64,000 bases of DNA, taken from assembly GCF_030384885.1 (NCBI RefSeq), contig NZ_CP128613.1; one strand, given 5' to 3'. This document shows positions 16,301 through 19,300 of this stretch, piece after piece. The stretch is from Escherichia coli. GTDB taxonomy: Bacteria > Pseudomonadota > Gammaproteobacteria > Enterobacterales > Enterobacteriaceae. Made by a program: the position numbers. Every line of letters starts with the position of its first letter. The stretch's first letter is position 1.

Positions 16301-19300
16301 AAAAGTGAGATTTCACGAAGCTAATTTGACGTTGTTTGGCAATGTAAGCGGTTTTCATTTTTTATACTCCTGCGTCCTGTTGCTTATGATTAAGCAACAA
16401 AAACCGACACACATGCAATAATCATTCAATAAAAAGCCTCACACACTTTTGATTCATTAAAAAAGAAGGCTAAAATAGAATGATTCTTCAATCTGCATAA
16501 GAAAATCCTATGGAAAATTATCTGATCGACAATCTGGACCGCGGCATCCTGGAAGCATTAATGGGTAATGCGCGTACCGCTTACGCCGAACTGGCGAAAC
16601 AATTTGGCGTCAGTCCGGGGACAATTCACGTTCGTGTAGAGAAAATGAAGCAGGCGGGGATCATTACCGGGGCGCGCATTGATGTCAGCCCTAAACAGCT
16701 TGGTTATGACGTAGGCTGCTTTATCGGCATTATATTAAAGAGCGCCAAAGACTATCCTTCCGCGCTGGCAAAGCTGGAAAGCCTCGATGAAGTCACTGAA
16801 GCCTATTACACAACTGGCCACTACAGCATCTTTATCAAAGTGATGTGCCGTTCGATCGATGCTCTCCAGCATGTACTTATCAACAAGATCCAAACAATTG
16901 ATGAAATTCAGTCCACCGAGACACTGATCGTCCTGCAAAACCCGATCATGCGTACCATTAAGCCATGATCAGCTTTTTTAATCCCATACTTTTCCACAGG
17001 TAGATCCCAACGCGTTCACAGCGTACAATACGCCACTCTTAATAAAGGTGGCGGTTTATGGCAGATATCACTCTTATCAGCGGCAGCACCCTCGGCGGTG
17101 CCGAATATGTGGCAGAACACCTGGCTGAAAAGCTGGAAGAGGCGGGTTTTACCACCGAAACGCTGCACGGTCCGCTGTTGGAAGATTTATCTGCCTCGGG
17201 GATCTGGCTGGTTATCAGCTCAACCCACGGTGCCGGAGATATTCCGGACAACCTTTCTCCTTTCTATGAAGCATTGCAGGAACAGAAGCCCGATCTTTCT
17301 GCGGTCTGCTTTGGCGCTATCGGTATTGGCAGTCGTGAATATGACACCTTTTGTGGGGCTATCGATAAACTCGAGGCAGAACTCAAAAATTCCGGTGCAA
17401 AACAGACAGGCGAAACACTGAAGCTCAACATCCTTGATCACGACATTCCGGAAGATCCGGCAGAAGAATGGCTGGGATCGTGGATTAATTTACTCAAATA
17501 AGTATACAGATCGTGCGATCTGTTGTGGGTAACTCTGTCAGGAAGCTTGGATCAACCGGTAGTTATCCAAAGAACAACCGTTGTTCAGTTTTTGAGTTGT
17601 GTATAACCCCTCATTCTGATCCCAGCTTATACGGTCCAGGATCACCGATCATTCACAGTTAATGATCCTTTCCAGGTTGTTGATCTTAAACGCCGGATCC
17701 TTGTTATCCACAGGGAAGTGCGATCCTAATAAGAGATCACAATAGAACAGATCTCTAAATAAATAGATCTTCTTTTTAATACTCAGGATCCCAGGTCTTT
17801 CTCAAGCCGACAAAGTTGAGTAGAATCCACGGCCCGGGCTTCAATCCATTTTCATACCGCGTTATGCGAGGCAATCACCATGTTTTATCCGGATCCTTTT
17901 GACGTCATCATCATTGGCGGGGGTCATGCAGGCACCGAGGCCGCGATGGCCGCGGCGCGTATGGGTCAACAGACTCTGCTTTTGACACACAATATCGACA
18001 CTCTGGGGCAGATGAGCTGCAACCCGGCGATCGGCGGTATTGGGAAGGGACATCTGGTAAAAGAAGTGGATGCACTCGGCGGCCTGATGGCTAAAGCGAT
18101 CGATCAGGCTGGTATCCAGTTTAGGATACTAAACGCAAGCAAGGGACCGGCAGTTCGCGCTACCCGAGCTCAGGCGGATCGTGTGCTCTACCGTCAGGCG
18201 GTACGTACGGCGCTGGAGAACCAACCGAACCTGATGATCTTCCAGCAGGCGGTTGAAGATCTTATTGTCGAAAACGATCGCGTGGTCGGTGCTGTTACCC
18301 AAATGGGACTGAAGTTCCGTGCCAAAGCCGTCGTGCTCACCGTTGGGACGTTCCTCGACGGTAAAATTCATATCGGTCTGGATAACTACAGCGGTGGCCG
18401 TGCTGGTGATCCGCCGTCCATTCCGCTCTCTCGCCGTTTGCGTGAACTGCCGCTGCGCGTTGGTCGTCTGAAAACCGGGACACCGCCGCGTATTGATGCT
18501 CGAACCATCGACTTTAGCGTGCTGGCGCAACAGCATGGCGATAACCCAATGCCGGTATTCTCGTTTATGGGCAATGCGTCCCAGCATCCACAGCAGGTGC
18601 CGTGTTATATCACCCATACCAACGAGAAAACCCATGACGTGATCCGCAGTAACCTCGATCGCAGCCCAATGTACGCAGGGGTAATCGAAGGTGTTGGCCC
18701 ACGCTACTGTCCGTCGATCGAAGACAAAGTCATGCGCTTCGCCGACAGAAATCAGCATCAGATCTTCCTTGAACCGGAAGGGCTGACCTCTAACGAAATT
18801 TATCCGAACGGTATCTCCACCAGCCTGCCGTTCGATGTGCAGATGCAAATCGTCCGCTCCATGCAGGGGATGGAAAACGCGAAGATCGTGCGTCCGGGTT
18901 ATGCCATTGAGTATGACTTCTTCGATCCACGCGACCTGAAACCGACGCTGGAGAGCAAGTTTATCCAGGGGCTGTTCTTTGCTGGTCAGATTAACGGCAC
19001 TACCGGTTACGAAGAAGCCGCTGCGCAAGGTTTGCTGGCCGGTCTTAACGCTGCCCGTCTGTCTGCTGACAAAGAAGGTTGGGCTCCGGCGCGTTCTCAG
19101 GCGTATCTCGGCGTACTGGTTGATGACCTGTGCACTTTAGGAACCAAAGAACCGTATCGTATGTTTACCTCGCGCGCAGAATATCGTCTGATGCTGCGCG
19201 AAGATAATGCAGATCTGCGTTTGACTGAAATCGGTCGTGAACTGGGCCTGGTGGATGACGAACGTTGGGCGCGCTTTAACGAGAAACTTGAGAATATCGA

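What the first reader, a model, noticed from the sequence alone, without database searches (positions are those of the whole stretch)
17522..17792. oriC is intact but the mioC-proximal DnaA box reads TTACCCACA rather than consensus TTATNCACA
The origin has the three 13-mers, R1 (TTATCCACA), and the R2- and R3-like boxes where expected. The box nearest mioC (R4 position, 17525..17533 plus strand TGTGGGTAA) has C instead of the conserved T at position 4, with two further differences in the next few bases relative to my recollection of K-12. R4 is a high-affinity DnaA site, so a natural variant there would be notable, but my recall is not reliable at single-base level.
Basis: partly seen in the sequence, partly recalled or inferred. 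Interest (0 to 1): 0.35.

Follow-up and report, generated by a model that had tools for sequence, protein, structure and literature searches.

The report
Rare known variant of oriC R4
This E. coli replication origin is intact, but one of its three strong initiator-binding sites (R4) has a single T-to-C change; the change is rare yet recurrent, was already published for strain E2348/69, is the normal state in a few related species, and is probably harmless or mildly weakening.

Summary
The window is an E. coli chromosome with mioC, oriC and mnmG in the usual order. The rest of oriC is in place: AT-cluster, three 13-mers, R1, R5M, I1, R2, R3 and C1.

K-12 and 5,233 of 5,426 complete E. coli genomes carry the canonical sequence. 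The closest genome, 2013C-4282, differs from the window at only this base within oriC. The two neighbouring differences (17522-17523, GT instead of AC) lie outside the box and are shared by related strains.

The variant is not new. Frimodt-Moller et al. 2015 reported the same T-to-C change at R4 position 4 in EPEC E2348/69. I also found it in strains A27 and GN02323. With the window, that makes four different oriC haplotypes, so the change arose independently.

Of the 27 possible single-base R4 variants, it is the only one found in the K-12-type flanking sequence. It is also the species-representative state in two clades of other Enterobacteriaceae.

Best reading: a real, tolerated point mutation that probably weakens a dispensable DnaA anchor site. 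A sequencing error in this particular assembly cannot be excluded. Interest is low to moderate.

The parts
17524..17532 (-). DnaA box R4, reading TTACCCACA (canonical TTATCCACA); one mismatch to TTWTNCACA at box position 4
   Evidence: absent from the TTWTNCACA scan
17529..17529 (+). The variant base itself: G on the + strand (A in all close relatives and in K-12), i.e. T-to-C on the box strand. It is derived and private to the window.
17522..17523 (+). GT instead of K-12 AC, just outside the R4 box. This is a lineage polymorphism shared with 2013C-4282, EC42405, 2020CK-00188 and MFDS1022581.
17536..17544 (-). Low-affinity DnaA box C1 (TTCCTGACA), identical to K-12
17563..17571 (+). R3/C3 region (TTATCCAAA on the + strand), identical to K-12
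17598..17606 (-). DnaA box R2 (TTATACACA)
17649..17657 (+). DnaA box R5M (TCATTCACA on the + strand)
17704..17712 (+). DnaA box R1 (TTATCCACA), canonical
17726..17781 (-). Duplex-unwinding element: 13-mers R (17726-17738), M (17741-17753) and L (17757-17769), plus the AT-cluster (17770-17781). All are identical to K-12.
17058..17501 (+). mioC, flanking oriC on the R4 side. It carries a window-private SNP at 17424 (I123L) that destroys a GATC site 105 bp from R4.
17880..19769 (+). mnmG (gidA), flanking oriC on the 13-mer side

Best explanation
This is a genuine single-base polymorphism (T-to-C at position 4) in DnaA box R4 of an otherwise canonical E. coli oriC. R4 is the high-affinity site that anchors and nucleates the right-hand DnaA oligomer (R4, C1, I3, C2, C3), which assists unwinding and DnaB helicase loading. 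Box position 4 lies in the TnCACA part that a DnaA domain IV helix reads in the major groove. The change therefore most likely lowers the intrinsic affinity of R4 (inferred, not measured). The origin should still fire, because R4 and the whole right half are dispensable and the left half drives unwinding. The expected phenotype ranges from none to a mild delay or asynchrony of initiation. In evolutionary terms it is the best-tolerated departure from the DnaA-box consensus. It arises repeatedly as a tip mutation in E. coli and has become the normal state in some related species.
For: Shown here. (1) The base is derived and private. The nearest genome, 2013C-4282, is 99.97% identical over 64 kb, and in oriC it differs only at 17529. 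An outgroup and four sister contigs carry the canonical base. (2) The window's other private SNPs are ordinary scattered substitutions with no methylation-motif or homopolymer pattern. (3) The same substitution is present in E2348/69 (four records of that strain or its derivatives), A27 and GN02323, on different oriC haplotypes. GN02323 differs from Nissle 1917 and ATCC 25922 by about 2 mismatches in 10 kb, estimated from bit scores, one of them this base. (4) Of the 27 single-base R4 variants tested in the K-12 flank, only T4-to-C occurs in 5,426 genomes. R1 shows a single different variant in one genome. (5) Among 79-80 Enterobacteriaceae species representatives, R4 is TTACCCACA in 5, from two clades. 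R1 is TTACCCACA in 2, and R5M carries T4-to-C in 3. (6) DnaA domain IV of the nearest relative is identical to K-12. From papers. The same change was reported in E2348/69 (PMC4585315). The helix 434-451 reads TnCACA (PMC5742627). R4 nucleates a non-essential Right-DnaA subcomplex (PMC9198467). Complete loss of DnaA binding at R4 (R4Tma) gives normal colony growth but inhibited, asynchronous initiation (PMC12122000).
Against: No binding measurement for TTACCCACA was found, so the size and even the sign of the affinity effect are inferred. The variant in this particular genome is unsupported by any second assembly. The window's own MioC and GlmU alleles are not on record, and no relative carries the variant. 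In E. coli the variant was seen in single strains only, which is also what mildly deleterious mutations or errors would look like. The 27-variant scan covers only genomes with the K-12-type flanks; about 190 genomes have other flanks and were not surveyed.
Confidence: 0.7

Rival explanations
1. Sequencing or assembly error: the true base at 17529 is A and R4 is canonical in this strain.
For: The base is private to the window. It is absent from the 5,426 complete genomes in this flank and from sister contigs. The window's private protein alleles (MioC I123L, GlmU M180I) are not on record in a collection of about 15 billion proteins. A second private change lies only 105 bp away, at the adenine of a GATC site, a motif known (from my own knowledge) to cause some basecalling errors.
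Against: The context is not a homopolymer or a methylation motif. The window's other private SNPs look like normal strain divergence, and where the two genomes differ by an indel, it is the reference, not the window, that carries the frameshift. The identical change is real in independently sequenced genomes.
Confidence: 0.15
2. Adaptive tuning allele: T4-to-C at R4 is positively selected in some backgrounds because it lowers right-half DnaA loading and so retunes initiation timing, possibly together with loss of the nearby GATC in mioC.
For: The recurrence is strikingly non-random. All four independent E. coli events are the same one of 27 possible changes. The same substitution is the species-representative state at R4, R1 or R5M in other genera. 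In the window, two private mutations hit replication-related motifs within 105 bp.
Against: A purifying-selection filter that tolerates only this change explains the same pattern without positive selection. In the two lineages that have close relatives in the set (GN02323 and the window), the allele is a private tip mutation rather than part of an expanding clade. Two of six SNPs falling within 105 bp of 44 kb has p of about 0.07 by my rough estimate. No phenotype data exist.
Confidence: 0.1
3. Local mutational hotspot or imported DNA: the base changes often for mechanistic reasons, or it came in by recombination from another carrier.
For: The identical transition recurs on four haplotypes.
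Against: The same T4-to-C occurs at three different boxes with different flanks (R4, R1, R5M), which argues for a functional filter rather than a local hotspot. The window keeps its lineage-specific GT one base from the box edge (6-7 bases from the variant base) and matches 2013C-4282 on both sides, so an imported tract is implausible. By eye, the change does not improve any nearby palindrome (inference only).
Confidence: 0.05

Closest known systems
E. coli K-12 MG1655 oriC (NC_000913.3, 3925744-3925975)
   Same: Same position between mnmG and mioC. Same AT-cluster, 13-mers, R1, R5M, I1, R2, R3, C1 and spacing. About 98% identity over 401 bp.
   Different: R4 is TTACCCACA instead of TTATCCACA. 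Five further substitutions in the intergenic region lie outside the mapped protein-binding elements (window 17522-17523, 17579, 17691, 17716, 17783).
oriC of EPEC O127:H6 E2348/69, the R4 T4-to-C allele described by Frimodt-Moller et al. 2015 (PMC4585315)
   Same: Identical base change at the identical position of the identical box.
   Different: Different oriC haplotype: left flank CAC against TGT, and other spacer differences. Different lineage, since the window's clone is close to 2013C-4282. The changes therefore arose independently.
Engineered R4 loss-of-binding origins (R4Tma, Left-oriC; PMC12122000, PMC9198467)
   Same: Both alter the DnaA anchor of the right half of oriC.
   Different: Those replace the whole box or delete the right half and abolish binding. 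Here one base changes, so the effect should be at most as strong and probably much weaker (inference).
oriC of Pseudescherichia vulneris and relatives, and of Citrobacter sp. R56 / Awk 4
   Same: R4 reads TTACCCACA in the species-representative genomes.
   Different: Different genera with diverged spacers. One of them (UBA7338, L067) also has TTACCCACA at R1.

Membership tests
Enterobacterial (E. coli-type) oriC | Located between mnmG (gidA) and mioC | tested here: met
   ORFs and the annotation of the near-identical record: mioC 17058-17501, mnmG 17880-19769
Enterobacterial (E. coli-type) oriC | AT-cluster plus three 13-mer repeats (GATCTnTTnTTTT type) forming the unwinding element | tested here: met
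   Exact K-12 sequences at 17726-17781
Enterobacterial (E. coli-type) oriC | Full-length homology to K-12 minimal oriC with conserved spacing of the DnaA boxes | tested here: met
   Gap-free alignment at about 98% identity; R1, R5M, I1, R2, R3 and C1 identical
Enterobacterial (E. coli-type) oriC | Dense GATC (Dam/SeqA) sites | tested here: met
   12 GATC in 17522-17792, all at K-12 positions
Enterobacterial (E. coli-type) oriC | Actually fires as the chromosomal origin | not testable with these tools
   Needs marker-frequency or flow-cytometry data
Stringent-consensus (high-affinity) DnaA R-box, TTWTNCACA | T at box position 4 | tested here: not met
   The R4 position reads TTACCCACA and is not returned by the TTWTNCACA scan. 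The site is therefore a one-mismatch box, not a consensus box.
Stringent-consensus (high-affinity) DnaA R-box, TTWTNCACA | Nanomolar DnaA binding, independent of ATP or ADP form | not testable with these tools
   No measurement for TTACCCACA was found in the searchable literature
Known natural R4 T4-to-C allele (E2348/69 type) | dT-to-dC at position 4 of box R4 in an otherwise intact E. coli oriC | tested here: met
   published description; sequence identity of the box in E2348/69, A27, GN02323 and the window
Known natural R4 T4-to-C allele (E2348/69 type) | Shared descent with the E2348/69 allele | tested here: not met
   The flanking haplotypes differ and the nearest relative is canonical, so this is the same change by independent mutation

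The most novel reading that the evidence does not exclude
T-to-C at position 4 may be the one departure from the DnaA-box consensus that DnaA tolerates well. In that case the working consensus in Enterobacteriaceae would be TTAYNCACA, or TTACCCACA would act as a distinct 'tuned-down' anchor. Natural strains and species would then use it at R4, R1 or R5M to adjust how readily the origin fires. The window's strain, with an R4 change plus loss of a nearby GATC, would be a fresh example.
Probability: 0.2. Interest if true: 0.5.

Novelty: already known. Interest (0 to 1): 0.25.

Why it matters
R4 is one of three sites that DnaA occupies through most of the cell cycle, and it sets the right-hand half of the initiation complex. 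A natural weakening of R4 shows how much slack the origin has. The finding adds little on its own, because the same allele is published for E2348/69. The survey done here does give a cheap, testable lead. In 5,426 E. coli genomes, T4-to-C is the only R4 single-base variant found, and it arose at least four times. It also recurs at R4, R1 and R5M across Enterobacteriaceae. A binding assay and an allele swap would show whether position 4 is less critical than the textbook consensus implies.

Tried and rejected
1. Metagenome scans: the variant 30-mer gave 0 hits, but the canonical 30-mer gave only 3, so the zero says nothing.

2. Tracing the window's clone through its private protein alleles (MioC I123L, GlmU M180I): neither is on record. 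The ancestral MioC allele gave sister contigs, all with canonical R4.

3. Literature on DnaA binding to TTACCCACA or TGTGGGTAA: nothing relevant. Fujikawa 2003, Kaur 2014 and Rozgaja 2011 are not held, so the structural statement rests on a review.

4. Signature of methylation-related basecalling error among the window's private SNPs: not seen, except that 17424 lies in a GATC.

5. Co-variation in the initiator: the nearest relative's DnaA differs from K-12 only in the domain II linker. The window itself holds only the first base of dnaA.

6. Recombination import and quasi-palindrome templating were considered and rejected on the flanking haplotypes and by eye.

7. Four extra records in the 27-variant scan (H72-H75) look like an artefact of joining the query pieces. 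I infer that they carry GGAAC instead of GGATC to the right of C1 rather than an R4 change; I did not fetch them to check.

Full report
**What is there.** The window is an E. coli chromosome segment running from an rrn operon through rbs, kup, ravA-viaA, asnA, asnC, mioC, oriC, mnmG, rsmG and atp to the first base of dnaA. The intergenic region between mioC (17058-17501) and mnmG (17880-19769) is oriC, in the orientation opposite to the textbook drawing.

Exact motif mapping finds these elements:
- AT-cluster: 17770-17781
- 13-mers: L 17757-17769, M 17741-17753, R 17726-17738
- R1: 17704-17712 (TTATCCACA)
- R5M: 17649-17657
- I1: 17627-17635
- R2: 17598-17606
- R3: 17563-17571
- C1: 17536-17544
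- R4 position: 17524-17532, which reads TTACCCACA on the minus strand

The changed base is G at 17529 on the plus strand.

**Is it different from K-12 and other E. coli?** Yes. In a gap-free alignment, K-12 MG1655 has TTATCCACA at R4. The window differs from K-12 at 17529 and at the two bases 17522-17523 (GT against AC), which lie just outside the 9-mer. It also differs at one mioC coding base and at four spacer positions.

The GT flank and three of those four spacer changes are shared with strains EC42405 and 2020CK-00188. All of them, like the GT flank, are shared with 2013C-4282, so they are lineage polymorphisms. The R4 base is not shared.

The nearest complete genome, 2013C-4282 (NZ_CP027579.1), differs from the window by 20 mismatches and one indel over 64 kb. 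Within oriC the only difference is 17529.

**Polarity of the change.** Polarising with outgroup MFDS1022581 shows that the window's base is derived. It is one of six window-private substitutions in the first 44 kb: 1886, 17424, 17529, 25781, 29670 and 30153. Four sister contigs recovered through the ancestral MioC allele also have the canonical R4.

**How rare is it?** I used exact-word searches with 30-mers in which every 28-base seed spans the variant base.
- The window's own 30-mer is in none of the 5,426 complete genomes.
- A version independent of the left flank is in 6 records.
- The canonical version is in 5,233 genomes.

The six records are four assemblies of EPEC O127:H6 E2348/69 or its derivatives, strain A27 (tapir faeces, Venezuela) and strain GN02323 (human blood, USA). 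This amounts to three independent strains, about 0.1% of records.

The four carriers, including the window, have four different oriC haplotypes on both sides of R4. By bit score, GN02323 differs from Nissle 1917 and ATCC 25922 by about two mismatches in 10 kb, so its R4 change is a private tip mutation, as in the window. Independent origin is the parsimonious reading.

**It is already published.** Frimodt-Moller et al. 2015 (PMC4585315) compared oriC in 59 E. coli genomes. [quoted passage not shown] The change from a dT to a dC in nucleotide position number 4'. R1 and R2 were invariant in their set.

**Is the substitution special?** I joined all 27 single-base variants of the R4 9-mer, in the K-12 flank, into one query.
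- Only T4-to-C was found, in the same six records, which serve as an internal positive control.
- None of the other 26 variants occurs.
- Four extra records matched through a junction artefact. I infer that they carry GGAAC instead of GGATC further right, but I did not fetch them to check.
- The same scan for R1 found a single genome (EC14) with A7-to-C and no T4-to-C.

If the 24 non-consensus changes were equally likely, four independent events all being the same one has a chance of about (1/24)^3. Counting transitions only, it is about (1/8)^3. This is my rough estimate. The caveat is that only genomes with the K-12-type flanks are surveyed; roughly 190 genomes with other flanks are not.

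**Across species.** Using MioC to fetch one locus per species, I aligned oriC from 79-80 Enterobacteriaceae species representatives.

| Box | Sequences found (number of species) |
|---|---|
| R4 | TTATCCACA (66-67), TTATACACA (6, within consensus), TTACCCACA (5), TTATCCCCA (1), TTATCCACT (1) |
| R1 | TTATCCACA (76), TTACCCACA (2), TTATCAACA (1) |
| R5M | T4-to-C (TCACTCACA) in 3 Enterobacter genomes |
| R2 | varies only at the free fifth position |

- The five TTACCCACA carriers at R4 fall into two clades: Citrobacter sp. R56 and Awk 4, and Pseudescherichia vulneris with UBA7338 and 'Escherichia sp.' ESNIH1.
- The two carriers at R1 are Enterobacter soli and UBA7338. UBA7338 therefore has the variant at both anchor boxes.

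T4-to-C is thus the most frequent departure from the consensus in this family, at three different boxes with different flanks. It is compatible with long-term origin function.

**How it most likely works.** The following comes from papers:
- DnaA domain IV inserts helix 434-451 into the major groove and reads the TnCACA part of the box, which includes T4. Arg399 reads TTA in the minor groove (PMC5742627).
- R4 is the high-affinity anchor of the Right-DnaA subcomplex (R4, C1, I3, C2, C3). [quoted passage not shown]
- Replacing R4 with a sequence that E. coli DnaA cannot bind (R4Tma) leaves colony growth normal. It inhibits initiation and makes it severely asynchronous, and deleting priC makes this worse (PMC12122000).
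- Frimodt-Moller et al. also summarise that R4 can be deleted or inverted on the chromosome.

What follows is inferred. T4-to-C removes a recognised thymine, so it probably lowers R4's intrinsic affinity. Cooperative filling and the redundancy of the origin keep it working, so the phenotype should lie between none and a mild version of R4Tma. The cross-species data argue for the mild end.

DnaA of the nearest relative is identical to K-12 in domains III and IV. There is therefore no sign of a compensating change in the reader protein, although the window's own dnaA lies outside the window.

**Rivals.**
- *Sequencing error.* This cannot be excluded for this assembly. The base is private, and the window's private protein alleles are not on record anywhere. 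However, the context is not error-prone, the assembly looks sound (the only indel is a frameshift in the reference, not the window), and the allele is real elsewhere.
- *Adaptive tuning.* The non-random recurrence suggests this reading. So does a second private change 105 bp away that destroys a GATC in mioC (17424, I123L). A purifying filter that tolerates only this change explains the recurrence equally well. In the lineages with close relatives in the set (the window and GN02323) the allele is a private tip mutation, and the clustering of two SNPs is weak evidence (p about 0.07 by my estimate).
- *Hotspot or import.* The flanking haplotypes argue against import, and the same change at other boxes argues against a local hotspot.

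**Verdict.** The variant is rare but real in the species, recurrent, already described, and probably of small effect. Novelty: already known. Interest: low to moderate.

The one useful lead is the pattern found here: T4-to-C is the only R4 single-base variant seen among 5,426 genomes, and it recurs at R4, R1 and R5M across the family. A binding assay and an allele swap could test it quickly.

Noticed in passing
window 17424 (in mioC, 17058-17501): A window-private A-to-C change makes MioC I123L and destroys a GATC (Dam/SeqA) site 105 bp from R4. All relatives, K-12 and the other R4-variant carriers keep the GATC. This MioC allele is not on record in the large protein collection.
   Followed up: partly
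window 36138 (lpfC-O113): The window has a run of 7 G where 2013C-4282 has 6. The reference gene is annotated as frameshifted, while the window and the outgroup carry the 7-G state.
   Followed up: partly
window 669-705 (16S rRNA gene, 165-1706, minus strand): Ten clustered differences from 2013C-4282. The window matches the outgroup, so the reference copy is the odd one; this may be variation between rrn operons or gene conversion.
   Followed up: partly
window 29670 (glmU, 29131-30501): A window-private G-to-A change gives GlmU M180I. This exact protein is not on record in the large protein collection.
   Followed up: partly
E. coli records H72-H75 (FDAARGOS_1252, OZ547152, SCU-387, MS20645), equivalent to window ~17550: These four genomes matched the joined query through its junctions. 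This implies GGAAC instead of GGATC to the right of C1, i.e. loss of one oriC GATC site. I did not fetch the sequences to confirm.
   Followed up: no
E. coli EC14, NZ_CM169487.1 168182-168210 (R1 box): The only R1 single-base variant found in 5,426 genomes: position 7 A-to-C (TTATCCCCA).
   Followed up: no
L067 (Enterobacteriaceae bacterium UBA7338) and L083 (Enterobacter soli), about 210-218 nt past the mioC stop: R1 reads TTACCCACA in these species representatives. L067 has the same variant at both R1 and R4, so both main DnaA anchors are off-consensus there.
   Followed up: partly
L056, L066, L069 (Enterobacter spp.), R5M position: R5M reads TCACTCACA, the same T4-to-C change at a third DnaA box.
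   Followed up: partly
window 17716 and 17691: Lineage-specific spacer substitutions relative to K-12. At 17716, between 13-mer R and R1, the window has A where K-12 has C. At 17691, between R1 and the IHF region, the window has C where K-12 has A. 17716 is shared by 2013C-4282, EC42405 and 2020CK-00188; 17691 is shared by 2013C-4282 and EC42405 only.
   Followed up: partly
search statistics: A few dozen complete genomes show two matching places for the oriC region (5,484 places in 5,424 records). This could be split alignments at record ends or duplicated origins.
   Followed up: no
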